Below are positions 12,578 to 56,750 of a DNA stretch of 64,000 nt, one piece after another (the stretch's first letter is position 1; every line of letters starts with the position of its first letter). The DNA comes from Verrucomicrobia bacterium UBA2281 (GTDB taxonomy: Bacteria; Verrucomicrobiota; Kiritimatiellia; CAIQIC01; Lenti-01): assembly GCA_002347655.1 (NCBI GenBank), contig DDWR01000024.1, forward strand, positions 59,685 to 123,684, given 5' to 3'. The translations under genes and the position numbers were made by a program. The notes beneath the pieces were generated by a model that saw nothing but the letters and a program-made list of their open reading frames with translations, was not told the origin of the DNA and did no database searches.

Positions 12578-13762
12578 TTGGGAGCATGGTATCGTGGGGG
12601 CGTGAGGAAACGAGGGATCATCGGGCTGGGAATGGCGTTGTTGTGGGGATTGCCGCTGGCCGGGGGCGCGGCATGCGGCTTTGATGCCCGGTTCTTCCGA
12701 TTCCCGCCGCTGGTGACGCATCCGCCCATCCACGCGCCTTTTTCCTGGCCGGTGTTCGCCGTTTTCGCGGTGATCGGCCTTCTCGCCGCCGCCATCCTGA
12801 TCGTCGGCTTCAAGCCCCCGCGCCTTTGCGGCACGGATGGATCGGTTTCATCCGCTCCGCCGCCGCCGCCCAAGGGCCCCTTCCCCCGCCACGGCCGCCT
12901 TGGCCTCGGCCTGCTCCTCGTCGCCTGGTTTCTCGCCTGGAGCCGCCTCGATCTGCCCGGCCCCGCCGAACAACACACCTTTTTTCCGCTCTGGCTCGGA
13001 TTCATCTTTTTCCTCGACGGACTCACCTACCGCCGCGCGGGACGCTCGCTCTTCGCGAACCGCCGCTCAACCTTCCTCCTGATGTTCCCCGTCTCCGCCC
13101 TCTCGTGGTGGTATTTCGAGTTCCTCAACCGCTTCGTCCGGAACTGGTGGTATCCCGACCGCCTGGATTTCGGCCCCGTCCATTACTTGGTCTACTCCTC
13201 GCTCTGCTTTTCCACCGTCCTCCCGGCCATCTTCGAAATCCGCGAACTGCTCATGACTGTCCCCGCCCTGCGCCGCCGCTGGTCCCACGGCCCGCGCGTC
13301 CGCCTGCCGCGCGCCGGCGCGATATTTTTCATTCTGGGCGCCGCGCTGCTGCCGCTGATTCCGCTTTTCCCCGATCCGCTCTTTTTCGCCGTCTGGCTCG
13401 CGCCTCTCGCCCTCCTCGCCGGCGCCCTTGGCCTCGCCGGCGCGAAATCGCCCTTCGCTCCCATCCGCGCCGGCAACTGGACACCCATCCTGACCCTCGC
13501 CCTCGCCGCGCTGGTCTGCGGCTTCTTCTGGGAGCTGTGGAACGCCTTCAGCTCCCCGCGCTGGGCCTACGCCGTGCCCTACGTCGGCCGCTTCCGCGTC
13601 TTCGCCATGCCCGCCGTCGGCTACGCCGGCTACCTGCCCTTCGGCCCCGTCTGCGCCTGCTTCTGGCTGGCCTGGACCGGCCTGCTCCGCAGGCGGGGGT
13701 CAGGGGCCAGGGTTCAGGATTCAGCCGGATCGGATCTTCTTTTCCTGAACCCCGAACCCTGA
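12578..13762 (+). CDS. hypothetical polytopic membrane protein
   Basis: 394-aa ORF with about 8 hydrophobic segments; no family recognised by eye. The C-terminal about 20 codons are read through the GGGTTCAG REP element, so the true stop or start is uncertain. Confidence 0.5.
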   Translation: MGAWYRGGVRKRGIIGLGMALLWGLPLAGGAACGFDARFFRFPPLVTHPPIHAPFSWPVFAVFAVIGLLAAAILIVGFKPPRLCGTDGSVSSAPPPPPKGPFPRHGRLGLGLLLVAWFLAWSRLDLPGPAEQHTFFPLWLGFIFFLDGLTYRRAGRSLFANRRSTFLLMFPVSALSWWYFEFLNRFVRNWWYPDRLDFGPVHYLVYSSLCFSTVLPAIFEIRELLMTVPALRRRWSHGPRVRLPRAGAIFFILGAALLPLIPLFPDPLFFAVWLAPLALLAGALGLAGAKSPFAPIRAGNWTPILTLALAALVCGFFWELWNAFSSPRWAYAVPYVGRFRVFAMPAVGYAGYLPFGPVCACFWLAWTGLLRRRGSGARVQDSAGSDLLFLNPEP

Positions 13763-13790
13763 CCCCTGTTTCTGAACCCTCTTCCGCTTG
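13697..13790. repeat. REP-like inverted repeat of GGGTTCAG/CTGAACCC units
   Basis: cagggttcaggattcag ... ctgaaccccgaaccctgaccc forms a long hairpin. The same unit family recurs at 29821-29853, 30296-30340 and 31211-31319. Confidence 0.5.
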
Positions 13791-13825: not shown

Positions 13826-14767
13826 ATGAACAGCACCCCCCACGTCCTCGTCACCGGCGGCGCCGGCTACCTCGGCTCCATCCTCGTGCCCACCCTGCTC
13901 GCCCGCGGCTGTGCCGTCACCGTCGTCGACAACTTCCTCTACGGCCAGACCTCCCTCCTCGACTGCTGCGCCTACGAGAACTTCACCATCGTCCGCGGCG
14001 ACGTCCGCGACGAACGCCTCATGCTGCCGCTGCTGAAGAAGGCCGACGTGATCATGCCGCTGGCCTGCCTCGTCGGCGCGCCCCTCTGCGCCCAGAAACC
14101 CATCGAGGCCCGTTCCATCAACCTCGACGCCATCCTCATGCTGCTCAAGAACGCCTCGAAGGCCCAGCGCTTCATCTCCCCCACGACCAACTCCGGCTAC
14201 GGGGTCGGCCAGACCGGCGTCTTCTGCACCGAAGAAACGCCCATGAACCCCATCTCCCTCTACGGCGTCCTCAAGGTCGAGCTCGAACAGGCCCTGCTCG
14301 CCGCCGGCGCCGTCTCCCTGCGCCTCGCCACCGTCTGCGGCGTCAGCCCCCGCATGCGCCTCGACCTGCTCGTCAACGACTTCACCTACCGCGCCGTCGT
14401 CGACCGCTTCGTCGTCCTCTTCGAAGCCCACTTCAAGCGCAACTACGTCCACGTCCGCGACGTCGCCCGCGCCTTCTGCCACGCGCTGGACCACTTCGAC
14501 GCCATGCAGGGCCAGCCCTACAACGTCGGCCTCTCCGACGCCAACCTCTCCAAGATGGAGCTCTGCCAGGAAATCCAGAAGCAGATCCCCGACTTCACGA
14601 TCATGGAAGCCCCGATCGGCAAGGACCCCGACCAGCGCAACTACGTCGTCAGCAACGCCAAGATCGAAGCCACCGGCTACCAGCCCCAGGTTTCCATCCA
14701 GCGCGCCATCGCCGAGCTCATCAAGGGCTACCAAGTCGTTCGCCGCAACCAGCACGCCAACGTCTAG
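13826..14767 (+). CDS. NAD-dependent epimerase/dehydratase (extended SDR family)
   Basis: N-terminal Rossmann motif VLVTGGAGYLGS, catalytic YGVLK (YxxxK); 313 aa. Confidence 0.85.
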   Translation: MNSTPHVLVTGGAGYLGSILVPTLLARGCAVTVVDNFLYGQTSLLDCCAYENFTIVRGDVRDERLMLPLLKKADVIMPLACLVGAPLCAQKPIEARSINLDAILMLLKNASKAQRFISPTTNSGYGVGQTGVFCTEETPMNPISLYGVLKVELEQALLAAGAVSLRLATVCGVSPRMRLDLLVNDFTYRAVVDRFVVLFEAHFKRNYVHVRDVARAFCHALDHFDAMQGQPYNVGLSDANLSKMELCQEIQKQIPDFTIMEAPIGKDPDQRNYVVSNAKIEATGYQPQVSIQRAIAELIKGYQVVRRNQHANV

Positions 14768-14805
14768 CCGCGCGGAGACCGCGGCATGGCCCCCCATTCC
14801 AAAGT

Positions 14806-14855
14806 TTTTACGTTCTACGTAAAACTCCGCGAAAGTTTTTACGTTCTACGTAAAA
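14806..14855. promoter_or_regulatory. two tandem copies of the 19-bp palindrome TTTTACGT-TCT-ACGTAAAA (candidate operator)
   Basis: Perfect 8-3-8 palindromes at 14806-14824 and 14837-14855, AT-rich in a high-GC genome. The same palindrome pair occurs at 59431-59470 in the opposite orientation. Confidence 0.5.
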
Positions 14856-14870
14856 CTTTCGCCCCAGACC

Positions 14871-14891
14871 CCCACGGGCTTGCCCCGTGGG
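14871..14891. repeat. REP-like hairpin CCCACGGG-CTTGC-CCCGTGGG
   Basis: Same hairpin family as 23150-23225 and 26615-26720. Confidence 0.45.
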
Positions 14892-17374
14892 TGAATCAGG
14901 TCCGTTTTCCCGCGGGACCGGCCTCCTTCACCCGCGACGCAAGGCCGCGGGGGTCGCCGCCAAGGGGTCAGTCCCGTAATCTAGTAATTTTTGGGGCCCT
15001 TGCCTGGCTGCTCGCCGCGCCCCTCGCCGCCACCGCCGCGCGCCTGGTCGAGAATTTCGCCCCCGGCACGGCCGGCGCGTGGAAGCCCTACCTGAAATCG
15101 CCCGCCGTGGTGGCCACGGCCGACGGTCTGGCCTTTCCCGCGCCGTTTGCGCAGGCCGTCGACCGCGCCGCGTGGGACAAGGCGGTCAACTTCGACCTCT
15201 CCGCCGCCGTCGCCTTCGAACTGGACGTCGCCTGTCCCGCGCCCGACGCCGTGCGCGCGCTGGGGCTGTACTTCAAGAGCGGCGCGGGCTGGTATGTCGC
15301 CAACAAACCCCTCGCCGGCCCCACGCTCCACACCCTCGTTTTCAACAAGAGCGACTTCACGACCGAAGGCCAGCCCGCCGGCTGGAACCGCATCGACGGC
15401 ATCCGCCTCTCTCCGTGGAAAGGCGCCCGCGCCGCGGACGTCGCGCTGGTCTTTCGCCGCCTCGCCACGGTCGAAGGCTCGGCGCTCGTCGTCGTGCGCG
15501 GCACGACGTCGTGCCCCGACGCCGGCGCCCGCACCGTCGCCGAAAAAACCGCCGCGCGCGTCAGCGGCCTGCTGATCGAAGCCGGCCTCGGCCATGCCCT
15601 CGTGACCGACGACGATCTGCCCAAGGGCGCGCTGAAAGACGCCCGCGTGGCGCTGCTGCCCTACAATCCCAATCCCACGCCGGCGCAGCTCAAGGCGCTG
15701 ACCGATTTCGTCGCCCGCGGCGGCAAGCTGGGCGTCTTCTACGGTTCGTCGCCCGCGCTGGCCGCCGCCTTGGGCTTCCGGCTCGGGCCCTACGTCAAGT
15801 CCGACCGCCCCGGCCGCTGGCGGTCCATCGTGTTCGCCGATCCCATGGGCGGATTGGTGCCGCCGCGCATCTGGCAGGATTCATCCAACCTCATGCCCGC
15901 GTTCCCCGCCGGCCCCGGCGCGCAGGTCGTCGCCTATTGGCACGACGCCCGCGACGTCCGCCAGCCCGAGCCCGCCCTCGTCGCCTCGCCGCGCGGCTTC
16001 TGGATGTCGCATATCCTGCAAAGCGACGATCAGCCCTCGAAGAAAGAACTCCTTGTGGCCTTGTGCGCGCGGCTCGATCCCGCGCTCTGGACGCCGGCCG
16101 CCCTCCGCGCCATGCAGGATGCCGGCCGCATCAACGACTACGCCGGGATCGCCAGCGCGCTGGCGGGCATCGCCCGCCAGTTGCCGCTCGCCGCGCGGCC
16201 CGGCGACGTCCGCGCCCTGCTTGACCAGGCCGCCGTGCTCTCCGCGCAGATCCAGACCGCCCTCGCCGGCGGCCAACCCCAGAAGGCCCTGTTGCTGGCC
16301 CGACGCCAGCGCCAGCTCCTGCTGCGCGCCGACGCCGCCGTCCAGCCGCCCCGGCCCGGCGAATTCGTCGGCGTGTGGGACCACGACGGTACCGGGTTCG
16401 TCCCCGGCGACTGGAATTTCACCGCGAATCTGCTCGCGGCCAACGGCGTCACCGCCATCTTCCCCAACGTCGTCTGGGGCGGCTGCGCGCACTATCCCTC
16501 CAAGTTCCTGCCCGCCTCCGCCACCCTGCGGCTCTACGGCGACCAGATCGCCGCCGGCCTCGCCGCCGCCAAGGCCAAGGGCCTCGAGTACCACGTCTGG
16601 ATGGTGCTGGGCAAACTCGACGGCGCGCCGCCCGAGTTCGTCGAGCGCATGAAGAAGGAAGGCCGCCTGCAGGTCTCCGACGCCGGCGTCGTGCGCCCGT
16701 GGCTGAGCCCCCACCACAACGCCAACCGCGCGCTGCTGCTCGCCGTCGTCGAGGAAATCGCGCGGAATTATCCGGGCATCGACGGCATCCACCTCGACTA
16801 CATCCGGCTGCCGGACTCGCTCAGCTGCTATTCCGCCTCCACCCGCGCGCGCTTCGAGTCCGACACCCGCAAGAAGTGCAAGGTCTGGCCCGCCGAGGTC
16901 AAGACCGGCGGCAAGCGCAACGCCGAGTTCCGCAAATGGCGCACCGCCGACGTCACCCGGCTCGTCGCCGACATCCGCGCCACGCTGCGCCGCGCGAATC
17001 CCCGCGCCAAGCTCTCCGCCGCGGTCTTCGGCATCGCCGCGCCCGACGGCGGCAACATCGCGCAATACTGGCCCGACTGGCTCAAGGCCGGCACCGTCGA
17101 TTTCCTGACGCCGATGAACTACACCGAGTCGTCCGCCGAATTCGCCCGCCTCGTGCGCACGCAGGTTGCCTATCCCGGCGCCGCCGGCCGCATTATCCCC
17201 GGCATCGGCGTCACGGCCGACGAATCGCGCCTCGATCCCGCGCAGGTCGTGCGCCAGATCGCGCTGCTGCGCCAAGCCGGCTGCCCCGGCTTCATGCTCT
17301 TCGACCTCTCCGGCACCCTCCGCGACGAAACCCTCCCCGCGCTGCGGCAGGGCATCACCCGGCCCCTTCCTTGA
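14891..17374 (+). CDS. secreted glycoside-hydrolase-like family 10 (GHL10/DUF187) protein with a large N-terminal extension
   Basis: C-terminal region carries the GHL10 signature (IDGIHLDYIRLPD...WPDWLKAGTVDFLTPMNY). A signal-peptide-like segment (LVIFGALAWLLAAPLAATAA) follows the first in-frame GTG at 14891. The track ORF start at 14786 lies inside the palindromic operator repeats and is unlikely to be real. Confidence 0.6.
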   Translation: MNQVRFPAGPASFTRDARPRGSPPRGQSRNLVIFGALAWLLAAPLAATAARLVENFAPGTAGAWKPYLKSPAVVATADGLAFPAPFAQAVDRAAWDKAVNFDLSAAVAFELDVACPAPDAVRALGLYFKSGAGWYVANKPLAGPTLHTLVFNKSDFTTEGQPAGWNRIDGIRLSPWKGARAADVALVFRRLATVEGSALVVVRGTTSCPDAGARTVAEKTAARVSGLLIEAGLGHALVTDDDLPKGALKDARVALLPYNPNPTPAQLKALTDFVARGGKLGVFYGSSPALAAALGFRLGPYVKSDRPGRWRSIVFADPMGGLVPPRIWQDSSNLMPAFPAGPGAQVVAYWHDARDVRQPEPALVASPRGFWMSHILQSDDQPSKKELLVALCARLDPALWTPAALRAMQDAGRINDYAGIASALAGIARQLPLAARPGDVRALLDQAAVLSAQIQTALAGGQPQKALLLARRQRQLLLRADAAVQPPRPGEFVGVWDHDGTGFVPGDWNFTANLLAANGVTAIFPNVVWGGCAHYPSKFLPASATLRLYGDQIAAGLAAAKAKGLEYHVWMVLGKLDGAPPEFVERMKKEGRLQVSDAGVVRPWLSPHHNANRALLLAVVEEIARNYPGIDGIHLDYIRLPDSLSCYSASTRARFESDTRKKCKVWPAEVKTGGKRNAEFRKWRTADVTRLVADIRATLRRANPRAKLSAAVFGIAAPDGGNIAQYWPDWLKAGTVDFLTPMNYTESSAEFARLVRTQVAYPGAAGRIIPGIGVTADESRLDPAQVVRQIALLRQAGCPGFMLFDLSGTLRDETLPALRQGITRPLP

Positions 17375-17379
17375 ACGTT

Positions 17380-17470
17380 GGTTATTGGGCGTTGGATATT
17401 GGTCATTGAAGCCCGACGGCTTTCGATCTCAATTTCCAATAACCCATATTCAATATCCAATCATCAAGTG
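17380..17470. repeat. MITE-like AT-rich inverted-repeat element, copy A
   Basis: ggttattgggcgttggatattggtcattgaagcc ... aatttccaataacccatattcaatatccaatcatcaagtgaac; arms contain TTGGATATTGG / CCAATATCCAA and a cttgaac/ttcaagtgaac terminus. Confidence 0.55.
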
Positions 17471-17562
17471 AACCGCCCTCTCGACAAATGTTAAATTATC
17501 ATTTGCCGCCATTCCCGGCTTGATTTTCAATCAATTCTATACATGATGCATGGCGTGATTTT

Positions 17563-17604
17563 CAGACGCCAGACGCCAGACGCCAGACGCCAGACGCCAG
17601 ACGC
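17563..17604. repeat. heptanucleotide microsatellite (CAGACGC)x6
   Basis: Six perfect tandem 7-bp units ending about 25 nt upstream of the ATG at 17629. Confidence 0.8.
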
Positions 17605-17747
17605 TTCGGCGCTGGTGGATTCCTGCTGATGCCAAGCATCTGACGGTTATCCTGTTTCTGCTGGCAAAACCGTTCTCCGCCAGCGCCGATGAAGTCACCG
17701 TTGCGTTTTCCCCGCGCGGCGAGGCGCTCAATCTGGTCCTGAACGAG

Positions 17748-19448
17748 TTGCGCGCCGCCACCGGTCGCGTGGATCTCGCCCAGTTCTACGTCACCCACCC
17801 CGACTTGATCGATGCGCTGTGTGCATTGCCGGCCAAAGGCATCCAAGTGCGCCTGCTGACGGACGTCACCATGGGCGAGGCGGCCCAGCAACCCACTTTG
17901 GACAAGCTGACTCGCCACGGCGTGCTGCTCTACTTGATCGAACCGCCCAAGCGCGGCAAGATGCACATGAAGTGCCTCGTGGTGGACGCCAAAACCGTCG
18001 TCGCAGGCACCGCCAACTGGACCCAGCAGGCTTTCGATCTGAATTTCGAGGACACCCTCAAAATCGCCTCGCCCGCGCTGGCTGCGGTCTATTTGGCCAA
18101 GATGGATGAATTGACGTCCTCCGACATGGCCTCCGAAGTCCATGGCTCCGGCGCGAAGCCCGCGCGCCTGAATTTCCCCCTTCCCAAGCCACCGGTCGTT
18201 CGTACGCCTCCCGGCCGGGTGAACGCACCCGGGGGCCGAAAATTCACGGTGCCGGCTCCCGAGAGCTTTTTCCTGCCCAATCCCGAACCGTTCGACCGCT
18301 TGGCCGCGCAAATCCGTTCCGCCACCAGCCGCATCGACGTCGCCATCTTCCTCTTGAACGAGGACCGGATCGTTTCCGCTTTGACCGAACGCGCCAAAGC
18401 CCGAGGTTGCGCCATCCGGATTCTGGCCGACGTCGGCATGCTGGGCTCGGGCAATCTGGAAGTCCTCCAAAACCTGGCGACCGCCGGCGTCGAAATCCGC
18501 ACGTTCGGTTCGGACCGCGAAAACCTGCATATGAAAACCGGCGTCATCGACGGCCATTTCTTCTGGACGGGTTCCGCCAACTGGACCAAAGGGGCCATGT
18601 CCTTGAACGTGGAAGATATGCTCTGTTTCGATGCTCCCGAACTGGCCGCCTGGTACGGCAAATGGATGGATGGATTCGCCAAAGTCTGCCAGCCGTTTGC
18701 TCCGCTTCAGGCGCAAACGGCGTCCAACGCGACCCATCCGGCGCCCGCCGGAAAATGGCCGGTCGGCCTTCCGTCCACGGCACCCCGCGCCGATTGGGAT
18801 CATCTGGTGGAACACGTGGATTTTCCGCCGTTGGAAACCAACGCCTGGACCGCCTACCTGCCGGACGAGGCCTATGCTCCCGTGCTGCTCGACCTGATCC
18901 GCAAAGCCCACCAAACCATCTTGATCGCTATGTACAAGGTCGCCGAATCGGGCGAAAAAGCCGCGGCGGGTTTCCATGGGCAAATAGTCTCCGAACTGGA
19001 AAAAGCCGCCGCCCGAGGCGTATATGTGAGCCTTTTGCTCCACGTGCCCGTGTCGCCGCAAGACGCCCTGTACGACGCCCATTCCCATTGGGCCGAGCGT
19101 TTGCGCGCCAAAGGCATCGACGTCCGCCTGAGCCTCCCCACCCTGCCCATGCACGAGAAATTCGTGTCGGTGGACCTGTGCAAGGTCCTTGTCGGTTCGC
19201 ACAACTGGTCGGAAGGCGCCCTCGATGGCTCCCGCGTCTACGAGTCCAGCGCCCTCGTCGTCTACCCGCAGCAGCAAAAATGGCTGGCCGACTACTTCTT
19301 CAGCCGCCCCTCGGTCAGCGACATGTCCAGCCGCGAGGCCTGGGAACGCGAACTCACCCTCATCCGCCATGCCAAGAACATGGATGATAATCTTGAAAAA
19401 TACCAATTCCTCGAATCGCTCGGCGTGGAAACGGAGGCCACCCCGTGA
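17748..19448 (+). CDS. phospholipase D-family protein with three HKD motifs (probably secreted; true start likely the ATG near 17629)
   Basis: HKD motifs HMKCLVVDAKTVVAGTANWT, HMKTGVIDGHFFWTGSANWT and HEKFVSVDLCKVLVGSHNWS. An upstream ATG at ~17629 plus a signal peptide (ILTVILFLLAKPFSASA|DEV) is in frame in my reading of the displayed bases. The track instead starts at TTG 17748 and shows the ATG frame as MPSI*, a 1-nt discrepancy near 17640. Confidence 0.75.
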   Translation: MRAATGRVDLAQFYVTHPDLIDALCALPAKGIQVRLLTDVTMGEAAQQPTLDKLTRHGVLLYLIEPPKRGKMHMKCLVVDAKTVVAGTANWTQQAFDLNFEDTLKIASPALAAVYLAKMDELTSSDMASEVHGSGAKPARLNFPLPKPPVVRTPPGRVNAPGGRKFTVPAPESFFLPNPEPFDRLAAQIRSATSRIDVAIFLLNEDRIVSALTERAKARGCAIRILADVGMLGSGNLEVLQNLATAGVEIRTFGSDRENLHMKTGVIDGHFFWTGSANWTKGAMSLNVEDMLCFDAPELAAWYGKWMDGFAKVCQPFAPLQAQTASNATHPAPAGKWPVGLPSTAPRADWDHLVEHVDFPPLETNAWTAYLPDEAYAPVLLDLIRKAHQTILIAMYKVAESGEKAAAGFHGQIVSELEKAAARGVYVSLLLHVPVSPQDALYDAHSHWAERLRAKGIDVRLSLPTLPMHEKFVSVDLCKVLVGSHNWSEGALDGSRVYESSALVVYPQQQKWLADYFFSRPSVSDMSSREAWERELTLIRHAKNMDDNLEKYQFLESLGVETEATP

Positions 19449-19527
19449 GTACCGCCATGGCCCATGTTCGGAAAGGTAGGGCGGTCTCGCCGAGACCGCC
19501 GCGCTCCTCCGTGTCGTCCGGGCTGTT

Positions 19528-19600
19528 CGATCCAATTGGTCATTGGATATTGGGCGTTGGACATTGGATGTTGAGATTTCTCCAGCCTGTAGCCCGGCGC
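19528..19600. repeat. MITE-like element, copy B
   Basis: caattggtcattggatattgggcgttggacattggatgttgag; same TTGGATATTGG-containing unit as copy A, again immediately upstream of a PLD gene. Confidence 0.5.
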
Positions 19601-19675
19601 GTTGAGCCGGGCGGATTTCGATCCCACCGGGTCAACGCCCTGGCCTACAGCCGATCCCCATCCGTTCTGAGCACT

Positions 19676-20422
19676 TTGGGCGTGCTCCTTCTTCTATGCC
19701 CCGCCGTTCGAGCCGACGAAATTTCCCTCCGCGATGGCACCAGCCTGACCGGCCGGGTCCTCATGGTTCAATCCGGCGGCTACGTGTTCCAGGACGGCGC
19801 CCCCCGCGGAACGATGCAAAACATCCCCAAGGCCGCCGTTCGATATGCCCTCTACGACGATCCCGCGCAGGCCGACCGCGTCCTCGGAATCCGCAGTGCG
19901 CTGCGTCACGCCGAAGGGGAGGCCAGTTTTGTCCGCCTCCTCCCCACCCGCCCTTTCGGCCAAGCCATCCTCGAAGCCGTCCAAAACGCGCATGCCTCCA
20001 TTTGGGTCAGCGCCTACTATATTTCCGGAAGCTCCACGAGCCCTATCAAGGATTTCTACGCCGCCCTGGCCGAGAAGGCACAACAAGGGCTCGACGTGGT
20101 CGTCGTCAGCGAATACGGCCCCGGCACCAGCGCCCGCGTGCGCGAAGCCACCTACAACTTCGCCCGCGAACTGGAGCAATCCGGCATCCGCGTCCTGTTC
20201 ATGAGCGGCTACCGCATCCTGCACAAGAAGATGATCCTGGTGGACAGCCAAATCGCCCTGCTCGGCAGCGCCAACCTCACCATGGCCGGCACCCTCCAAA
20301 GCGACGAAATGAACGTCGAGATCCGCCAACCCGCCTATGTAGCCAGAATGCGTAAGGATTTTGAAAAGATCATGGCGTCCGCCCTAACGGCGGATGCTGC
20401 CAATGCAAAGGAGATAAAGTGA
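19676..20422 (+). CDS. secreted single-HKD phospholipase D/Nuc-like protein
   Basis: HKD motif HKKMILVDSQIALLGSANLT. A likely TTG/GTG start at 19676/19682 gives the signal peptide MGVLLLLCPAVRA|DEI. The track ORF starts at 19445, but that N-terminus is read through the MITE. The stop overlaps the next gene's GTG (GTGA). Confidence 0.65.
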   Translation: MGVLLLLCPAVRADEISLRDGTSLTGRVLMVQSGGYVFQDGAPRGTMQNIPKAAVRYALYDDPAQADRVLGIRSALRHAEGEASFVRLLPTRPFGQAILEAVQNAHASIWVSAYYISGSSTSPIKDFYAALAEKAQQGLDVVVVSEYGPGTSARVREATYNFARELEQSGIRVLFMSGYRILHKKMILVDSQIALLGSANLTMAGTLQSDEMNVEIRQPAYVARMRKDFEKIMASALTADAANAKEIK

Positions 20423-21075
20423 AATACAGAAATCACACCGGCCTTTGGACCAGCTCAGTCTGGCTCGCGGGGCTATTGCTTATAGGGCTTGTTTTGCCTG
20501 CTCGGCCCGCCGGAAAATCCCCCGGAGATTGCAAGGTTGAGGAATGTCAAGAATGGGATGAATACGAACACGATTGCGTTGATATGCCAAAAAATTGTGT
20601 TATTTTGGCGTGGTTTGGAGAAGACCGCGATGATGGAGATTGCAATCAGGGAATCACCTACAACACCAGGGATGTCCCGATATGCGGGACAAAAACTAAA
20701 ACCATCAAATATCAAGAGCACAAAAGCTGGTGTAAAGGTCACTACGCCTATGAACACGATTCAAGGAATGTTATATATACATGGATAATTACAACATGCC
20801 GTCCCCGATATGTAGGCCCTTCAATCGCTGATGACATTAAAAATGCCGCAGGGCTAGCTGCTTCCTGCCTTGAGGTGCTGCTGCAATTAGTTGCAGCAAC
20901 CCAAGGGGCGGGCAACTATCCAGATGCGTCTAATGTCGCAAGTTGTCTTGAGAGTCTTGCCAATTATTATAATTATGATGTTTCTACTTACTACTCCGGT
21001 TGCGAGGTGGCTGACATCCAATGGCAGGGGGCGGTTTTTAAATGCACCTTGTTGGGCGAAGGATGCGGCGAGTAA
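20419..21075 (+). CDS. hypothetical Cys-rich secreted protein (low-GC insert)
   Basis: GTG start with AAGGAG RBS 7 nt upstream; N-terminal TM/signal (LWTSSVWLAGLLLIGLVLPA); 16 Cys in 218 aa; local GC about 45% against about 68% for the flanks. Confidence 0.6.
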   Translation: MKYRNHTGLWTSSVWLAGLLLIGLVLPARPAGKSPGDCKVEECQEWDEYEHDCVDMPKNCVILAWFGEDRDDGDCNQGITYNTRDVPICGTKTKTIKYQEHKSWCKGHYAYEHDSRNVIYTWIITTCRPRYVGPSIADDIKNAAGLAASCLEVLLQLVAATQGAGNYPDASNVASCLESLANYYNYDVSTYYSGCEVADIQWQGAVFKCTLLGEGCGE

Positions 21076-21098
21076 TGTTTTTTACGAGGGATATATAA

Positions 21099-22109
21099 AT
21101 GAATAGATTCGATAAGTTGATGATTTGTATTGGGATGGCCGGGGTTCTACTCCTGAAAGGGTTCGCATACGGACAAGCACCCTCCCGGCAGGAGTATGTC
21201 CAAGCACTATTCAACCCAATTGCATTTCCAGCACAACATGTTCTTCACATGGACATCCAGAAGGAAAAGGCGGTTCAAGTCGTCGCGGATGGCGCCCTAC
21301 TTAATGAGCGTATTCGCGAATGTTATGAGTCGAGCGAAAGAATTCGGAGCGAATTTTCAACTCTGGAGGCATATGCGGCCGAGGTGAGGACGACTCAGTC
21401 CAATCAATTCCAGAAAACCAGCCAACGCATCACGACCTCCACGCAGTGCCAGCATCTTCGGGAATACGGAACCGACGGCGATCATGTGTCCAAGGAGGTC
21501 ATTCAATACCGCGTTGACGGGCAAAACTGGCAGACGCTCCAGATCGACCACGACCGACTTACTGCCTCCTTGCAGAAAGGAGCGAAAGGCATTTTCACCG
21601 ATTATCGAGAGACGGGCATGTTTAATAGCATGGACCAGTTACTGCTGATTATATTTTTCCGAATCCTGCCGAACATGAGCCAAGACGCCGCGGTCGATGC
21701 GTTGTGTAGCGGCGAAACCCTGTCGGCAGGCACCAAGTCAATGAAGCTGGAATCCCGGGAGGATGCCGATCCAGCCCATCTTCTTTTGACCTATCAAGAC
21801 GCGGTGGAGTCTTCGTCTATCGAATTCCAACTGGACCCTAAGAAGATCGGCGTGCTGATAAGCAAGAAATCCGCAATGCCTCAAGCTACCTCCCTGTGGG
21901 CTTTCACCCGGGATGCAACAATTCAAAATATCAGCTCTGCCTATCCGCGAAAAACCGTATTTACAAGGTTAGATACTGCCGGTCGCCTGCAGGAAAGAGA
22001 ATCGGTTACTTTAGAAGATATTTCGGAGGCGGCAGATTGGAATGTCCGACAGCTTTGGGCCGATAAAATGGACGAAATTAAAGTTTATCAAGTGTCGGTG
22101 CAGCCGTAG
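21099..22109 (+). CDS. hypothetical secreted protein (low-GC insert)
   Basis: ATG with GAGGG RBS; N-terminal hydrophobic segment MICIGMAGVLLL; 336 aa; no recognisable family; AT-rich codon usage unlike the neighbours. Confidence 0.6.
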   Translation: MNRFDKLMICIGMAGVLLLKGFAYGQAPSRQEYVQALFNPIAFPAQHVLHMDIQKEKAVQVVADGALLNERIRECYESSERIRSEFSTLEAYAAEVRTTQSNQFQKTSQRITTSTQCQHLREYGTDGDHVSKEVIQYRVDGQNWQTLQIDHDRLTASLQKGAKGIFTDYRETGMFNSMDQLLLIIFFRILPNMSQDAAVDALCSGETLSAGTKSMKLESREDADPAHLLLTYQDAVESSSIEFQLDPKKIGVLISKKSAMPQATSLWAFTRDATIQNISSAYPRKTVFTRLDTAGRLQERESVTLEDISEAADWNVRQLWADKMDEIKVYQVSVQP

Positions 22110-22131
22110 TTTGTCCTGATAATTGTCTATG

Positions 22132-22160
22132 GGCCGCCTCTATGAGGCGGCCGTTTTTTA
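22132..22160 (+). terminator. intrinsic terminator closing the low-GC insert
   Basis: GGCCGCCTC-TATG-GAGGCGGCC followed by TTTTTT. Confidence 0.75.
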
Positions 22161-22261
22161 TCTCTCTGGGCAAACAGACCTTTGGATTCTAATTTAATGT
22201 TTTCATACGGAGGTATTAGCATGGTATTTGTAGTCACCTAGCCAGTCCAAGGATATTTTTC

Positions 22262-23134
22262 ATGACCATCACCGCCCAGATCGTCGCCGACAGCGTTTCG
22301 CCGCAGGGCATCCGCCTCTCCACGCTTTCGCTGAAATATCCCCGCTGGATCCACGCGGAATTCATGACGCACCGCCTGTTTTCGCGCAACGCCAGCAGCT
22401 CGCGCGCCGTGCCGTCGAAGCGCCTGCGCGCGCTGGAGCGCGAGTATCCCCTCTGGTGGGGCGCCAACATTCCCGGCATGCAGGCCGGCGGGAAGCTCTC
22501 CGACGAGCAGGGCACCAAGGCCAAGGCCATCTGGGACCGCATGGCCGACGCCTGCATCGAAGGCGTCGCCGAGCTCGCCGAGCTGGGCCTGCACAAGCAG
22601 TGGGCCAACCGCCCGCTGGAATGGTTCACGTCCATTTCCGTGCTTGTGTCGGCCACGGCGTTCGACAATTTCTTCGGCGTGCGCTGGCATCCCGACGCGC
22701 AGCCCGAAATCCAGGAACTGGCCCGGCAGATGTTTTCGGCCCTGCAGTCCGCCACGCCCCGCCCCCTGGAACCCGACCAGTGGCACCTGCCCTACGTCTC
22801 CGCCGACGAGGAAAAAGCCCTCGGTCTCGACGTCGCCCGGCGCTGCTCGGCCGCGCGCTGCGCGCGCGTGTCCTACCTCAACCACGACGGCACCACGCCC
22901 AACGTCGCCAAGGACCTCGACACGTTCGCCAAGCTGGCCGGCGATCCCAACGGCCCGCCGCACCCGCTGCACGCCTCGCCGATGGAACACCAGGCCACGC
23001 CCGACCGCCTGCGCGACGCCGCCGATGCCGAATCGTGGCAGTTCCCGGCCCAGCACGGCAATTTCCGCGGCTGGCGGCAGTATCGCAAGATGCTCTCCAA
23101 CGAGCACATCGCGAGATTCACGCCGCCCGCTTGA
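22262..23134 (+). CDS. divergent ThyX-like (flavin-dependent thymidylate synthase family) protein
   Basis: LKYPRWIHAEFMTHRLFSRNASSSRA aligns with the ThyX RHRx7SxRY motif ([27 protein letters not shown]) but has T for the first R and A for Y. The C-terminal GNFRGWRQYRKMLSNEH matches ThyX NYRAWRHFIAMRASEH. A middle segment FFGVRWHPDAQPEIQELA also resembles that motif. Confidence 0.65.
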   Translation: MTITAQIVADSVSPQGIRLSTLSLKYPRWIHAEFMTHRLFSRNASSSRAVPSKRLRALEREYPLWWGANIPGMQAGGKLSDEQGTKAKAIWDRMADACIEGVAELAELGLHKQWANRPLEWFTSISVLVSATAFDNFFGVRWHPDAQPEIQELARQMFSALQSATPRPLEPDQWHLPYVSADEEKALGLDVARRCSAARCARVSYLNHDGTTPNVAKDLDTFAKLAGDPNGPPHPLHASPMEHQATPDRLRDAADAESWQFPAQHGNFRGWRQYRKMLSNEHIARFTPPA

Positions 23135-25301: not shown

Positions 25302-25919
25302 ATGAAGCGCCTCGCTCTCGCCGCAGTGCTCGTCCTGGCCGCCGCGTCCGGCGCGCGGGCCGACGGCGGCGTGCTGGCGGCCACCGCCGCCTCGACCCTC
25401 GGGGCGCGCGCCGCCAGCGGCTTCGTCAACGTCCCCTACGCCGGGCTCGGCGTCTTCGCCTCCCGCTGGGATAGCCAGGACTACGGCACGCTGACCGGCT
25501 ACGGCGTCCGGCTTGGCTGGAACGTGATCGAGCACCTCGGCCTCGAAGCCCGCGCGTCCTACTACGAATCCAAGGACGACGAAATCGAGACCACCGTCCT
25601 GCCTCTCGAAGCCGCCCTCGTCCTGCGCCTGCCGTTCCACCGCCGCTTCGTCCCCTACGTCGGCGGCGGCGCCGGCTATTATTTCAAGGACGCCGAATAC
25701 GAAGACGATACCGACACGTGGGAATCGTCGGAGGAAGTCGCCGGCTACTTCGGGATGGCCGGCCTCAATTTCTACCTCGGCGCCTTCTCTCTCTTCGCCG
25801 AGGCCAAGTACAACCTCGTCGGCACCGACGACGATCTCGAATGGCGCGGCGACGACGTCGAAGCGAAAAACTCCCTCGACGGCTTCTCCTTCTCCGCCGG
25901 ATTCAAGCTCGGGTTCTGA
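25302..25919 (+). CDS. outer-membrane beta-barrel protein (OmpA-like beta-barrel domain family)
   Basis: Signal peptide MKRLALAAVLVLAAASGARA, alternating amphipathic beta-strands, C-terminal ...SAGFKLGF; paralogous to the next gene. Confidence 0.7.
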   Translation: MKRLALAAVLVLAAASGARADGGVLAATAASTLGARAASGFVNVPYAGLGVFASRWDSQDYGTLTGYGVRLGWNVIEHLGLEARASYYESKDDEIETTVLPLEAALVLRLPFHRRFVPYVGGGAGYYFKDAEYEDDTDTWESSEEVAGYFGMAGLNFYLGAFSLFAEAKYNLVGTDDDLEWRGDDVEAKNSLDGFSFSAGFKLGF

Positions 25920-25999
25920 TTCCGTATTTTCCGGCTTGCCTCCCCGGTCGCCCCGGCCCATGCTTGGATCGGGTTTTCCCACAACCAAAGGAGCGCACC

Positions 26000-26584
26000 A
26001 TGAAAAAAACGATCGTTGGAATTCTGTTGGTTCTCGTTCTCGCGCCTCTGGCCTTCGCGGCCGGCGACGGAGCCGGCGGCTTGGGTGTTTTCGGTTCCTG
26101 GTGGGACAGCAAGGATTACGGCGCGCTCTACGGCGGCGGCGTCCGCTTCGGCGCCGAGATCTTCAGCGGCCTCGCCCTCGAAGCCCGCGTCTCCTACCTG
26201 GTCTCCGAAGACCGGGACGAGGTCGTCGAAGGCCGCAACGTCTCGACCGAACTGGAACTCGTGCCCCTTGAAGCGGCCGTCACCTGGACGCTCGACGTCA
26301 GCGAATCCATCAAGCCCTACGTCGGCGCAGGCGCGGGCTACTACCTGAAGAACGTCGATTGGAAAGCCGACGACGTGATCGACGAGGCCGACGACAAGGA
26401 CAGCGTCGGCTACTTCGCCCTCGCCGGCGCCAACGTCCTCCTCGGCCCCGTCGTGCTCTTCGCCGAAGCCAAATACAACATCATCCAGGACGACGACGAG
26501 TGGCGCTGGCAAGGCAGCGACACCAAGCAGAAAAACTCCCTCGACGGCTTCGCCGCCAACGTCGGCCTGAAACTCGCGTTCTAG
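26000..26584 (+). CDS. outer-membrane beta-barrel protein, paralog of the upstream gene
   Basis: ATG at 26000 with AAAGGAG RBS; signal peptide MKKTIVGILLVLVLAPLAFA; ends ...ANVGLKLAF; about 40% identical by eye to 25302..25919. Confidence 0.7.
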   Translation: MKKTIVGILLVLVLAPLAFAAGDGAGGLGVFGSWWDSKDYGALYGGGVRFGAEIFSGLALEARVSYLVSEDRDEVVEGRNVSTELELVPLEAAVTWTLDVSESIKPYVGAGAGYYLKNVDWKADDVIDEADDKDSVGYFALAGANVLLGPVVLFAEAKYNIIQDDDEWRWQGSDTKQKNSLDGFAANVGLKLAF

Positions 26585-26614
26585 CGCGCGTTGCGCTGAC
26601 GCTCGGGCTCTAGG

Positions 26615-29820: not shown

Positions 29821-29853
29821 GAGTCAGGGTTCAGAGTTCAGGGTTCAGGCAAG

Positions 29854-30312
29854 ATGGGCGAGTTTCGGAAATTGGAGGATCTGATCGTCTACCAGAAGCT
29901 CTGCCAGCTCCATATCGAGATCTCGGGCATATCCCATCGCTGGCCGGCCGAGGAAAAATTCGAGTTGGGAGCGCAAATCCGGCGTTCCTCGAACAGCGCG
30001 GCCGCCCAGTTGGCCGAAAAGTACGATGATCGCCATATTCGCAACAAAATCGAGGGGATCAACCGCAGCCGCGGCGAGGCCGCAGAGTCCGTCCATCATC
30101 TGTTCATGGCCCATTTGAAAAGATACGAAACCCTTGAAACGTACGAATCATACCGTTTGCGCTATCAGGAATGCATCCGTATGCTGAACGGCATGGAACG
30201 AACTTTGGGAAAACAGCTTCCCGAAGCCGCTCGCCGCTGGCCGGCCGTGCAGGAGCAACCCGGCGATTACAGCGCCGTCGGCTTTCCGGACCCCTCTTCA
30301 ACTGAACCCTGA
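29854..30312 (+). CDS. four-helix-bundle protein (23S rRNA intervening-sequence protein family)
   Basis: 152 aa, MGEFRKLEDLIVYQKLCQLHIEISGISHRWPAEEKFELGAQIRRSSNSAAAQLAE..., typical of this family. The gene is flanked by inverted blocks of GGGTTCAG repeats at 29821-29853 and 30296-30340. Confidence 0.75.
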   Translation: MGEFRKLEDLIVYQKLCQLHIEISGISHRWPAEEKFELGAQIRRSSNSAAAQLAEKYDDRHIRNKIEGINRSRGEAAESVHHLFMAHLKRYETLETYESYRLRYQECIRMLNGMERTLGKQLPEAARRWPAVQEQPGDYSAVGFPDPSSTEP

Positions 30313-30358
30313 ACCCCGAACCCTGACCCCTATTGAAAAAAAGAAAGGACCCTCCAAA

Positions 30359-31210: not shown

Positions 31211-31319
31211 CCAGAGTTCAGAGGTCAGGGTTCAGGGAAGACGGGCCGGGATCGAATCCCGAACCCCGAACCCTGAACCCTTTTGCTTTCCCCCCTGAAC
31301 TCCGAACCCTGAACCCTTT
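31211..31319. terminator. bidirectional REP-like hairpin cluster between the cyclase (+) and recR (-) genes
   Basis: agggttcagggaag...cccgaaccccgaaccctgaaccc inverted GGGTTCAG units form long stems followed by T-runs (cttttgctttcc / ccttttcacg). Confidence 0.5.
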
Positions 31320-38228: not shown

Positions 38229-38388
38229 CTCCATGAACAGCTGTTTTTCACACGGAGATTCACGGAGATCCACAGAGAAGATTGTCTTGTCGGCTTCTCT
38301 CTGTGAACCTCTGTGGCCCTCTGTGAGAGACAGGGATCGGGGCTGTTCGGTGCCATTGAATTTTCTGAAACCCACATAGGAGAATCCC

Positions 38389-49602: not shown

Positions 49603-49654
49603 CCCGCGCCGATGCTCTCCGCTTCGTCCCGCCTTAATCCTGCCCCGGCCCAAA

Positions 49655-49700
49655 CTTGAACCTTGGACATTGATTATTGGATATTGGATATTCCGCCCCC
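49655..49700. repeat. MITE-like element, half-copy C
   Basis: cttgaaccttggacattgattattggatattggatattccgccccc equals one arm of the element at 56566-56712 including the ttccgccccc terminus. Confidence 0.5.
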
Positions 49701-56712: not shown

Positions 56713-56750
56713 AATATTCCGCCCCCGTTATTTCCGAGCCCCTGTTCCCC

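What the first reader, a model, noticed from the sequence alone, without database searches (positions are those of the whole stretch)
17380..22160. Secreted PLD module: 3xHKD + 1xHKD phospholipase-D genes, each behind a MITE, coupled to a low-GC two-gene secreted insert
- The first PLD-family protein has three HKD motifs. One HKD active site needs two motifs, so an odd count is unusual.
- The gene immediately downstream has exactly one HKD motif, giving 3 + 1 = 4 and suggesting a heteromeric enzyme or a complementing partner.
- Both carry AXA-type signal peptides (SASA|DEV and AVRA|DEI).
- Each is directly preceded by a copy of the same AT-rich MITE-like element.
- PLD1 is also preceded by a (CAGACGC)x6 microsatellite.
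- The stop of the 1xHKD gene overlaps (GTGA) the GTG start of a Cys-rich secreted protein. There the GC content drops abruptly from about 68% to about 45% and stays low through a second 336-aa secreted protein.
- The unit ends at a textbook terminator at 22132-22160.
- No family was recognisable for the two low-GC proteins.
This looks like a horizontally acquired, exported four-protein module of unknown function: a lipase or nuclease with accessory, chaperone or inhibitor proteins.
Basis: partly seen in the sequence, partly recalled or inferred. Interest (0 to 1): 0.7.

Follow-up and report, generated by a model that had tools for sequence, protein, structure and literature searches.

The report
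Phase-variable split phospholipase-D operon
A four-gene operon encodes an exported phospholipase-D-type enzyme split over two proteins (3 + 1 active-site motifs) whose expression is gated by a 7-base repeat inside the first gene; the copy here is out of frame, and the two downstream secreted proteins are swapped between closely related strains.

Summary
PLD1 has three complete HKD motifs and PLD2 has one. The GTGA overlap, the GC drop and the terminator are real.

The 3+1 idea is strongly supported. A PLD2 homologue follows or is fused to PLD1 in 31 of 32 related loci. Five natural fusion proteins carry all four HKD domains in one chain. One of them folds as a compact four-domain protein (pLDDT 90, pTM 0.87).

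The (CAGACGC)x6 repeat lies inside the signal-peptide coding region, not upstream of the gene. With 6 copies, the start codon at 17543 runs into a stop at 17627-17629, so this allele is OFF. Relatives carry 2, 3, 5, 7, 8, 13 or 16 copies. Alleles with the same flanks are in frame only when n mod 3 = 2.

Across the family, frame-shifting repeats (2-, 7- and 8-base units) sit at this same position. They are about 370 times more frequent there than in flanking DNA.

Genes 3 and 4 form a replaceable cassette (20393-22260), bounded by the PLD2 3' end and the thyX start. The "MITE" is a dispersed heptamer-array hairpin, fixed at the same site in relatives. The substrate is unknown.

The parts
17372..17468 (+). 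Imperfect hairpin made of ATTGGNN and CAATATC heptamer arrays. It starts at the TGA stop of the upstream GHL10-like gene.
   Evidence: RNA fold dG -29.7, z -3.4. Repeat family D5 has 4 copies in the window. The element is at the same place in L003, L005 and L006.
17486..17542 (+). Conserved upstream region with the imperfect palindrome AAATGTTAAATTATCATTT (17486-17504). Inferred promoter or operator. No sigma-70 consensus match.
   Evidence: Nearly identical in L003, L005 and L006. The promoter scan found nothing here.
17543..17629 (+). OFF-state leader ORF. ATG ATG (17543 and 17546) reads MMHGVIFRRQTPDARRQTPDASALVDSC and stops at TGA 17627-17629.
   Evidence: In L003 and L006 the same ATG opens a 638-aa ORF.
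17563..17604 (+). (CAGACGC)x6 tract inside the n-region of the signal-peptide coding sequence. Inferred slipped-strand switch. The gene is in frame only when n mod 3 = 2.
   Evidence: It is the only perfect SSR of at least 21 nt with a unit not divisible by 3 in the 64 kb window.
17604..19448 (+). PLD1 body in frame 0. The frame is open from 17559, and the mature protein starts at D 17688. It has three Nuc-like PLDc_2 domains with HKD motifs at 17964-18017, 18528-18581 and 19152-19205.
   Evidence: Pfam PLDc_2, 232 bits, 3 stretches. Motifs. 83 homologues. The motifs are conserved in almost all of them.
19534..19580 (+). It lies between the PLD1 stop and the PLD2 signal peptide.
   Evidence: family D5. 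The element is coded in an open frame in the window, L004, L005, L006 and L088. It is absent in L009, where PLD2 starts at the PLD1 stop.
19568..20422 (+). PLD2: leader, a small beta domain (ISLRDG...) and one PLDc_2 domain with its HKD motif at 20222-20275. The start is uncertain: ATG 19568, or GTG 19445 overlapping the PLD1 stop.
   Evidence: It aligns to residues 636-851 of the fusion protein P0049 (36% identity, E 5e-40).
20393..22260 (+). Replaceable cassette: gene 3, gene 4, the terminator and the thyX upstream region. It is non-homologous between window and L006, although the flanks are homologous.
   Evidence: blastn breakpoints at 20392 and 22261. GC 0.475 and 0.504 against 0.62 for the PLD genes.
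20419..21075 (+). Gene 3: secreted 218-aa protein with 13 Cys. The GTG start overlaps the PLD2 stop. Conserved N-terminal head CKVEECQEWDEYEHDC at 20530-20577. The rest is polymorphic.
   Evidence: (only 4 clusters among 5.8 billion proteins).
21099..22109 (+). Gene 4: secreted 336-aa orphan protein. Tentatively a LolA/LolB-like open beta-barrel fold.
22132..22160 (+). Intrinsic terminator that closes the operon.

Best explanation
WHAT IT IS
This is one operon (about 17543-22160) of a PVC-superphylum bacterium. The closest records are labelled Verrucomicrobia or Kiritimatiellia MAGs.

PARTS
1. PLD1 and PLD2 together make one exported PLD-superfamily phosphodiesterase with four Nuc-like HKD domains, which gives two composite active sites. 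PLD1 supplies three domains. PLD2 supplies a small beta domain and the fourth HKD domain. The most likely pairing is D1 with D2 and D3 with PLD2.
2. Expression is gated by the (CAGACGC)n tract in the n-region of the signal-peptide coding sequence. Translation from ATG 17543 reaches the enzyme only when n mod 3 = 2.
   - The window has n = 6, so the ribosome stops at 17627-17629 and the allele is OFF.
   - Loss of one unit, or gain of two, by slipped-strand mispairing would switch it ON.
   - Because the tract codes for a leader that is cleaved off, its length does not change the mature enzyme.
3. PLD2, gene 3 and gene 4 follow with overlapping or very short junctions. The OFF state therefore probably lowers them too, by polarity.
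4. Genes 3 and 4 are a swappable cassette. Gene 3 is a Cys-rich secreted protein with a conserved head and a variable body. Gene 4 is a second variable secreted partner, here tentatively LolA-like.

SHOWN AND INFERRED
- Shown: the architecture, the frame states, tract-length polymorphism, conserved synteny, the fusions, and the cassette boundaries.
- Inferred: the switching itself, export, the domain pairing, and polarity.
- The substrate is not known. Sequence neighbours are nucleases (NucT, Nuc, Zucchini, DrmC), so a nucleic-acid or other phosphodiester substrate outside the cytoplasm is my leading guess, at roughly 55%. A lipid substrate is roughly 35%.
For: FRAME STATES
- Window n = 6 is out of frame. 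Simulated n = 5 gives a 632-aa ORF and n = 8 a 639-aa ORF; n = 7 is out of frame.
- Alleles with the same flanks: L003 and L006 have n = 8 and a 638-aa ORF; L005 has n = 7 and is out of frame, and the gene caller gives a truncated 558 aa.
- Other alleles: n = 2 (L004, in frame), 3 (L083, out), 5 (L088/P0004 and P0007, in frame), 13 (L084 and L085, out), 16 (L008, out). P0011 has about 12 CAGCCGC units, inferred from its QPPAASR x4 leader, and is in frame.

FAMILY-WIDE REPEATS
- Heptamers, octamers and (CT)13-18 sit at the same 5' position in homologues of 38-46% identity. A 20-base poly-C run in L017 also lies there but fell below the 21-nt count.
- 18 perfect SSRs in 9.3 kb of 5' ends, against 2 in 381 kb of flanks.
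- A contig ends in the tract (L007), and an N-gap lies inside a tract (L027).

THE 3+1 ENZYME
- A PLD2 homologue lies directly downstream of or fused to PLD1 in 31 of 32 loci with downstream DNA.
- Fusions P0044, P0046, P0049, P0056 and P0058 carry four HKD motifs.
- The AlphaFold model of P0049 has pLDDT 90.3 and pTM 0.87.
- Its best Foldseek matches are bilobed two-HKD enzymes: 7e0m, PLD3, PLD4, F13 and PssA.
- All four motifs are conserved.
- One active site needs two HKD motifs, either within a chain or by dimerisation (PMC10783504).

THE CASSETTE
- Breakpoints at 20392 and 22261.
- Different gene 3 and gene 4 in L004, L005, L006 and L088.
- Window-type genes 3 and 4 occur next to a PLD1 of only 68% identity in L009.
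- Conserved gene 3 head.

PRECEDENT
- A heptanucleotide repeat controls phase variation of meningococcal pglE (PMC7157529).
Against: - No within-population length variation was seen. Two independent JGI assemblies of the same strain are 100% identical to the window and both have n = 6.
- Many alleles are OFF. That is also what slow decay of a dispensable gene would produce.
- About half of the distant homologues have no SSR. In some, for example L024, an in-frame start lies downstream of the tract, so tract control is not universal.
- No ribosome-binding site or promoter was identified.
- I could not obtain model coordinates, so which domains pair is inferred from linker confidence and gene order only.
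- Signal peptides were judged by eye.
- L011 has a PLD1 homologue with no detectable PLD2 downstream.
- The substrate, and the roles of genes 3 and 4, are unknown.
Confidence: 0.72

Rival explanations
1. The window copy of PLD1 is simply a decaying pseudogene. Tract-length differences between strains are neutral microsatellite drift, not a switch.
For: - 7 of about 13 close alleles are out of frame.
- Two assemblies of the same strain share n = 6.
- The module has atypical GC3.
Against: - The 1,890-nt PLD1 body frame is intact, with all three HKD motifs.
- Frame-shifting SSRs of unrelated sequence (2-, 7- and 8-base units) recur at the same position in homologues down to 38% identity, with about 370-fold enrichment. 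Drift does not explain that.
- In-frame and out-of-frame alleles are interleaved among close relatives.
Confidence: 0.1
2. The tract is 5' untranslated. Translation starts downstream at a non-canonical codon such as CTG 17640 or ATT 17619, so the gene is always ON. The repeat at most tunes transcription or mRNA structure.
For: - No Shine-Dalgarno sequence marks ATG 17543.
- Start-codon usage and ribosome-binding signals were not examined for this genome, and non-canonical starts cannot be excluded from sequence alone.
Against: - There is no ATG, GTG or TTG in frame between 17559 and 17748.
- In L003, L006, L088, P0007, P0023 and P0026 the ORF runs from a conserved Met through the tract as RRQTPDA repeats into the signal peptide.
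- A start at CTG 17640 would leave a leader with no charged n-region.
Confidence: 0.08
3. PLD1 and PLD2 are independent enzymes. PLD2 is a Nuc-like homodimer. PLD1 pairs D1 with D2 internally and dimerises through D3. The 3 + 1 count is a coincidence.
For: - Single-HKD nucleases normally homodimerise (PMC10783504).
- L011 has a PLD1 homologue without a detectable PLD2.
Against: - Adjacency in 31 of 32 loci, with overlapping or near-abutting junctions.
- Five fusion proteins join PLD2 directly after D3.
- The fusion folds as one compact four-domain body with pTM 0.87.
Confidence: 0.1
4. The module acts on envelope lipids or lipoproteins, not nucleic acids. The periplasmic four-HKD enzyme remodels phospholipid or lipid-linked head groups, and gene 4 (LolA/LolB-like) carries the lipid. 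Phase variation then changes the cell surface, as in LOS-modifying contingency genes.
For: - The gene 4 model best matches LolB, LolA3 and other LolA-superfamily structures.
- The structural neighbours of the fusion include PssA and phospholipases.
- Enzymes with both motifs in one unit are typically lipid-directed (PMC10783504).
Against: - The nearest sequence relatives of each domain are the nucleases NucT, Nuc, Zucchini and DrmC.
Confidence: 0.3

Closest known systems
Simple-sequence-repeat contingency loci: Neisseria opa with CTCTT repeats in the leader-coding region (my own knowledge), and meningococcal pglE with a heptanucleotide repeat (PMC7157529)
   Same: - A perfect tandem repeat with a unit not divisible by 3 lies in the 5' coding region.
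- Copy number differs between strains and sets the reading frame.
- As in opa, the tract sits in the part coding for the leader, so the mature protein is unaffected.
   Different: - The host is an uncultured environmental PVC bacterium, not a host-adapted pathogen.
- The target is an exported PLD-type enzyme operon rather than an adhesin, a glycosyltransferase or a restriction system.
- Switching itself has not been observed.
- Orthologues use different units (2, 7 and 8 bases) at the same site.
Single-HKD PLD nucleases: Nuc (1byr), NucT (6ehi), Zucchini/PLD6 (4ggj)
   Same: - Each of the four domains is a roughly 150-aa Nuc-like PLDc_2 domain with a full HKD motif. These are the best sequence matches in the PDB.
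- Nuc is also exported with a signal peptide (my own knowledge).
   Different: - Those enzymes are homodimers of one domain.
- Here four domains are spread 3 + 1 over two chains, or fused into one chain.
- NCBIfam NucT scores are far below the family cut-offs.
Two-HKD bilobed enzymes: bacterial PLD 7e0m, PLD3/PLD4 5' exonucleases, vaccinia F13, PssA
   Same: Adjacent domains of the fusion model superpose on these bilobed units (TM-score on the target 0.6-0.7).
   Different: - Sequence identity is only 13-17%.
- Those enzymes have two domains per chain and one site per chain. This one has four domains and presumably two sites.
DISARM DrmC (PLD-domain defence protein)
   Same: Best NCBIfam and PADLOC hits by score.
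   Different: - The score is 108 bits against a cut-off of 133.
- The proteins carry secretion leaders.
- The immediate neighbours are a GHL10-like hydrolase, thyX and a class II ribonucleotide reductase, not DISARM genes.
Polymorphic toxin-immunity cassettes (Rhs, CDI and related loci; my own knowledge)
   Same: - Gene 3 has a conserved head and a variable, mosaic body.
- It is followed by a variable partner gene of many unrelated folds: LolA-like, CarboxypepD_reg, HEAT, ankyrin.
- Pairs are tandemly repeated in L019, L022 and L036.
- The cassette has low GC.
   Different: - No known toxin or immunity domain was detected.
- Both proteins carry signal peptides.
- The conserved head is only about 20 aa.
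- No link to a known secretion system was found.

Membership tests
PLD superfamily (Pfam PLDc_2, PF13091) | HxK(x)4D(x)6G(G/S)xN motif within a domain that scores above the Pfam gathering cut-off | tested here: met
   PLD1 scores 232 bits with 3 stretches and PLD2 75.5 bits, against a cut-off of 27. Four complete motifs were located.
PLD superfamily (Pfam PLDc_2, PF13091) | Two HKD domains pack into a bilobed unit with one composite active site | tested here: inconclusive
   The model of the fusion homologue P0049 is compact (pTM 0.87) and matches bilobed enzymes. The window proteins themselves were not modelled as a complex.
Nuc/NucT nuclease equivalogs (NCBIfam NF010490-NF010493) | Score above the curated equivalog cut-off | tested here: not met
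   Best score 84.8 bits against a cut-off of 297.
DISARM DrmC (NF038319) | Score above the cut-off, and DISARM partner genes nearby | tested here: not met
   108 bits against a cut-off of 133. The neighbours examined are GHL10-like, ThyX and RNR.
SSR contingency locus (slipped-strand phase variation) | Perfect tandem repeat, with a unit not a multiple of 3, inside the ORF or promoter | tested here: met
   (CAGACGC)x6 at 17563-17604, between the start codon and the signal-peptide h-region.
SSR contingency locus (slipped-strand phase variation) | Copy number differs between strains and toggles the reading frame | tested here: met
   n = 2, 3, 5, 6, 7, 8, 13 and 16. Among alleles sharing the window's flanks (n = 6, 7, 8, 8), only n mod 3 = 2 is in frame.
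SSR contingency locus (slipped-strand phase variation) | Reversible high-frequency switching within one clonal population, with ON/OFF protein expression | not testable with these tools
   This needs read-level data or a culture. Two assemblies of the strain both show n = 6.
MITE | Terminal inverted repeats, target-site duplication, many near-identical copies, and presence/absence polymorphism | tested here: inconclusive
   Copy 1 is hairpin-like. The window has only 4 copies at 64-87% identity, two of them single arms. The elements occupy the same sites in L003-L006. No target-site duplication was seen. An IS200-like Y1 transposase sits next to the element in L005, which hints at a REP-like element instead.
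Polymorphic toxin-immunity system | Conserved N-terminal part with a variable C-terminal part, followed by a co-varying partner gene | tested here: met
   Alignment A7. Different gene 3 and gene 4 pairs occur behind 87-92% identical PLD genes. Tandem pairs occur.
Polymorphic toxin-immunity system | A recognisable toxin domain, or demonstrated toxicity and neutralisation | tested here: not met
   No family hit for gene 3 in four libraries. Toxicity cannot be tested here.
LolA/LolB superfamily (gene 4) | Open beta-barrel with a helical plug, and a sequence-family match | tested here: inconclusive
Intrinsic (Rho-independent) terminator | GC-rich stem-loop followed by a T-run | tested here: met
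   9-bp stem with 8 GC pairs, 3-nt loop, then GTTTTTT; dG -19.8, z -4.5.

The most novel reading that the evidence does not exclude
This is the conserved core of an undescribed, family-wide contingency system of Kiritimatiellia and related PVC bacteria. In it, a four-HKD exported phosphodiesterase is switched ON and OFF by leader-embedded repeats. It works together with exchangeable Cys-rich effector and partner cassettes that behave like toxin-immunity or antigen modules. The enzyme might process, anchor or deliver the Cys-rich proteins, or attack competitors or phage jointly with them. That would make it a new kind of polymorphic extracellular system in free-living anaerobes.
Probability: 0.25. 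Interest if true: 0.8.

Novelty: new variant of a known kind. Interest (0 to 1): 0.66.

Why it matters
- Slipped-strand contingency loci are described almost entirely in host-adapted pathogens. Here one protein family in uncultured environmental PVC bacteria carries frame-shifting repeats of many different units at the same leader position. That argues for long-term selection for switchability outside the pathogen world.
- The split 3 + 1 HKD enzyme, with natural four-HKD fusions, is a clean case for studying how PLD active sites are assembled from separate chains.
- The exchangeable Cys-rich cassettes give a concrete handle on an unknown extracellular function.
- Practically, gene callers truncate or mis-start these genes. 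P0001, P0006 and several others lack the leader. Annotation pipelines therefore miss both the export signal and the switch.

Tried and rejected
- **Alignments for folding.** MAFFT alignments that mix PLD1 and PLD2 homologues with the fusions (A1, A3, A4) put PLD2 onto domain 3 instead of domain 4. Only A2 places it correctly. A1 was still used for folding, because the misplaced rows are true paralogues.
- **Model coordinates.** They are not exposed, and Foldseek gives no aligned ranges. The domain pairing could therefore not be read off.
- **Metagenome scan with PLD1.** It returned only 3 loci, too few for a population distribution of tract lengths.
- **afdb50 library.** It was unavailable.
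- **Gene 3 head motif.** A six-frame search of the window found no further copies. No silent cassettes lie within these 64 kb.
- **Weak matches of gene 4.** The hits to long proteins P0134-P0136 are low-complexity or coiled-coil noise.
- **DISARM or defence-system reading.** Rejected: scores are below cut-off, the proteins have secretion leaders, and no partner genes are present.
- **Prophage reading.** Considered because of thyX and RNR, but not pursued. Those genes have host-like GC3 (0.88-0.90) and are syntenic at 96-99% identity in L006.
- **Literature.** Searches found nothing on PLD genes of Kiritimatiellae and no phase-variable PLD.

Full report
**1. What is in the sequence**

The region between a GHL10-like glycoside-hydrolase gene (14786-17374) and thyX (22262-23134) holds four co-oriented ORFs.

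- PLD1 has three PLDc_2 domains (Pfam 232 bits, three stretches). Each has a full HxK(x)4D(x)6G[ST]xN motif, at 17964-18017, 18528-18581 and 19152-19205.
- PLD2 (19568-20422, or starting at GTG 19445) has one such domain, with its motif at 20222-20275.
- Gene 3 (20419-21075; 218 aa, 13 Cys) starts with a GTG that overlaps the PLD2 stop as GTGA.
- Gene 4 (21099-22109; 336 aa) follows after 23 nt.
- A strong terminator closes the unit at 22132-22160 (dG -19.8, z -4.5).
- GC and GC3 by gene:

| Gene | GC | GC3 |
|---|---|---|
| GHL10-like | 0.705 | 0.888 |
| PLD1 | 0.618 | 0.771 |
| PLD2 | 0.620 | 0.754 |
| Gene 3 | 0.475 | 0.457 |
| Gene 4 | 0.504 | 0.567 |
| thyX | 0.684 | 0.897 |

The GC step starts from 62%, not 68%.

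**2. The microsatellite is inside the gene, and this allele is out of frame**

- The PLD1 frame is open from 17559. It contains no ATG, GTG or TTG until TTG 17748, which lies beyond the signal peptide and about 20 residues into the first domain.
- The only credible start is ATG ATG at 17543 and 17546. In the window it reads MMHGVIFRRQTPDARRQTPDASALVDSC and stops at TGA 17627-17629.
- In the closest relatives (L003 and L006, 91-92% identical) the same start and the same flanks enclose 8 repeat units. The ORF then runs through the tract as RRQTPDA repeats, into RRWRFPADAKHLTVILFLLAKPFSASA|DEV and on through the enzyme, for 638 aa.
- L005 has 7 units and is out of frame. The gene caller gave a truncated 558-aa product.
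- Removing one unit from the window sequence in silico gives a 632-aa ORF. Adding two gives 639 aa.
- Further alleles:
  - n = 2 (L004, in frame);
  - n = 3 (L083, out of frame);
  - n = 5 (L088/P0004 and P0007, in frame);
  - n = 13 (L084 and L085, out of frame);
  - n = 16 (L008, out of frame), with mixed CAGACGC, CAGCCGC and CAACCGC units;
  - about 12 CAGCCGC units in P0011, inferred from its QPPAASR x4 leader, in frame.
- Two independent JGI assemblies of the window's own strain are identical to it, and both have n = 6. The count is therefore not an assembly slip. It also means I have no direct evidence of variation within one population.

**3. The repeat is a property of the whole family**

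- Homologues of only 38-48% identity carry other frame-shifting repeats at the same place, between the start codon and the hydrophobic core of the leader:
  - CAGCCGT x9 (L024) and GCATCTC x4 (L023);
  - octamers CAGCCGTC x5 (L010), CAGCACGT x4 (L011), GGCATCTC x7 (L016, L027, L029), GGCATCTT x8 (L018) and CGACATCT x7 (L035);
  - (CT)13-18 (L021, L031, L036);
  - a 20-base poly-C run (L017), which fell below the 21-nt count below.
- Counting only perfect repeats of at least 21 nt with units of 1, 2, 4, 5, 7 or 8 bases gives 18 in 9.3 kb of PLD1 5' ends. The 381 kb of flanking DNA in the same loci holds 2. That is about 370-fold enrichment.
- In the 64-kb window the tract at 17563-17604 is the only such repeat.
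- One contig ends in the tract (L007), and one assembly has an N-gap inside it (L027). This is what assemblers do with length-heterogeneous repeats.
- The pattern is the signature of a slipped-strand contingency locus. Heptanucleotide control is documented for meningococcal pglE (PMC7157529). A repeat placed in the leader-coding region, which leaves the mature protein unchanged, parallels Neisseria opa (my own knowledge).

**4. The 3 + 1 enzyme**

- PLD chemistry needs two HKD motifs per active site. They are supplied within one chain or by dimerisation of single-HKD chains, the latter being typical of nucleases (PMC10783504).
- A PLD2 homologue lies immediately downstream of or fused to PLD1 in 31 of the 32 related loci that have downstream DNA. 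The exception is L011. This holds across PLD1 identities from 38% to 92%.
- Five proteins (P0044, P0046, P0049, P0056, P0058; 804-869 aa) are natural fusions.
  - P0049 residues 31-618 align with PLD1 (42% identity).
  - Residues 636-851 align with PLD2 (36% identity, E 5e-40).
  - There are four HKD motifs in total.
- AlphaFold2 folds P0049 as one compact body: pLDDT 90.3, pTM 0.87.
  - Domains: D1 31-175, D2 235-376, D3 419-575 plus helices to 634, a small beta domain 638-681, and D4 702-853.
- Its best PDB matches are bilobed two-HKD enzymes: PLD 7e0m, the PLD3/PLD4 5' exonucleases, F13 and PssA, with target TM-scores of 0.6-0.7.
- The least confident linkers are D2-D3 and beta-D4. Together with the fusion order, this suggests D1 pairs with D2 and D3 pairs with D4 (PLD2).
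- All four motifs are conserved across homologues. There is no fourth degenerate motif in PLD1.

**5. What kind of enzyme**

- Each domain is closest to single-HKD nucleases: NucT 6ehi, Zucchini 4ggj and Nuc 1byr, and DrmC and NucT models.
- Every equivalog score is below its cut-off. This is not a member of those families.
- The DISARM reading is further excluded by the secretion leaders and the neighbours.
- I favour an exported nuclease-like phosphodiesterase. A lipid-directed activity is a serious rival.

**6. Genes 3 and 4 are an exchangeable cassette**

- Window and L006 are homologous from 14000 to 20392 (89.6% DNA identity). They are non-homologous from 20393 to 22260. They become homologous again exactly at the thyX start (96% in DNA, 99% in protein).
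- Behind PLD genes of 87-92% identity, the cassette differs:

| Locus | Gene 3 | Gene 4 |
|---|---|---|
| L006 | 204 aa, Cys-rich | 306 aa |
| L005 | 238 aa | not determined |
| L004 | 603 aa, with about 20 PGPKPGxCFELNxxCEW repeats | 683 aa, CarboxypepD_reg |
| L088 | 181 aa, mosaic | 241 aa |

- Window-type genes 3 and 4 reappear next to a PLD1 of only 68% identity in L009. The cassette history therefore disagrees with the PLD history.
- All gene 3 versions share a leader and the head C-x(2-4)-C-x-EWD-x-Y-x3-C.
- In more distant loci the gene after PLD2 is again a Cys-rich, lower-GC secreted protein. One subclade has a DUF1573-like protein instead.
- It is followed by a Cys-poor secreted partner of many unrelated types, including HEAT, ankyrin, CarboxypepD_reg and SHOCT.
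- The pairs are sometimes repeated in tandem, in L019, L022 and L036.
- The window's gene 3 has only 4 clusters among 5.8 billion proteins. Gene 4 has only 3 true relatives among 1.84 billion representatives.
- The arrangement resembles polymorphic effector-partner cassettes. No toxin or immunity domain is recognisable.

**7. The 'MITE'**

- Copy 1 (17372-17468) is an imperfect hairpin of ATTGGNN and CAATATC heptamer arrays that begins at the stop codon of the upstream gene.
- Copy 2 (19534-19580) is a single arm.
- Two more partial copies lie at 49654-49700 and 56572-56726.
- Both local copies occupy the same sites in L003-L006 and L088. I saw no target duplications.
- In L005 an IS200-like Y1 transposase gene sits beside copy 1. 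This is more suggestive of a REP-like element than of a MITE.
- Copy 2 is absent in L009, where PLD2 starts at the PLD1 stop with a compact leader.

**8. Verdict**

The key features were missed:
- the repeat is a coding-region switch, and the window allele is OFF;
- the same switch design recurs across the family;
- the low-GC genes are one allele of a cassette system.

The mechanism of switching is a known kind. Its setting and target are new, as is the split four-HKD enzyme. The substrate and the biological role remain unknown.

Noticed in passing
window 13696-13768, 29824-29849, 30302-30331, 31212-31317, 38251-38326, 46912-46942: Several other families of short intergenic heptamer or decamer arrays, often as inverted pairs: TCAGGGT/CTGAACC, TCGGACC, CACGGAGATC/CTCTGTGAAC. 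The genome seems rich in array-type hairpin elements beyond the ATTGG family.
   Followed up: no
window 14801-14857 and 59426-59472: Two perfect 26-nt direct repeats, AAAGTTTTTACGTTCTACGTAAAACT, lie at the 5' end of the GHL10-like ORF. Two related copies lie on the other strand 45 kb away. Each unit is palindromic (GTTTTACGT.ACGTAAAAC), like an operator.
   Followed up: no
L005 625-1665: An IS200-like Y1 transposase gene (Pfam Y1_Tnp, 26.3 bits) is inserted between the GHL10-like gene and the ATTGG hairpin. The last roughly 130 nt of the GHL10-like gene are duplicated on both sides.
   Followed up: partly
L004 379-450 and 7419-7490: The first 72 nt of thyX are present twice: once upstream of PLD1 and once at the real thyX. 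The whole PLD operon is therefore flanked by direct repeats in that strain, which hints that the module can move or be excised as a unit.
   Followed up: partly
L006 with L019 (CALKWZ01); L008 with L015 and L016 (MWEZ01): The same genomes carry two or three paralogous copies of the PLD module, split and apparently fused versions, each with its own Cys-rich downstream gene.
   Followed up: partly
L019 12563-15799; L022 3526-6629; L036 8052-11843: Cys-rich gene and partner gene pairs are repeated in tandem. The repeats have near-identical leaders and heads but divergent bodies, like arrays of orphan cassettes.
   Followed up: no
window 17486-17504: An imperfect palindrome, AAATGTTAAATTATCATTT, lies between the hairpin and the PLD1 start. 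It is conserved in L003, L005 and L006 and may be a regulator binding site.
   Followed up: no
window 25400-26600: Two paralogous OMP_b-brl genes in tandem lie downstream of the class II ribonucleotide reductase. Repeat families D10, D17 and D20 are spaced 635-665 nt apart there.
   Followed up: no
L011 10001-21761: This is the only PLD1 homologue (46% identity, in frame through a CAGCACGT x4 tract) with no detectable PLD2 within 10 kb downstream.
   Followed up: no
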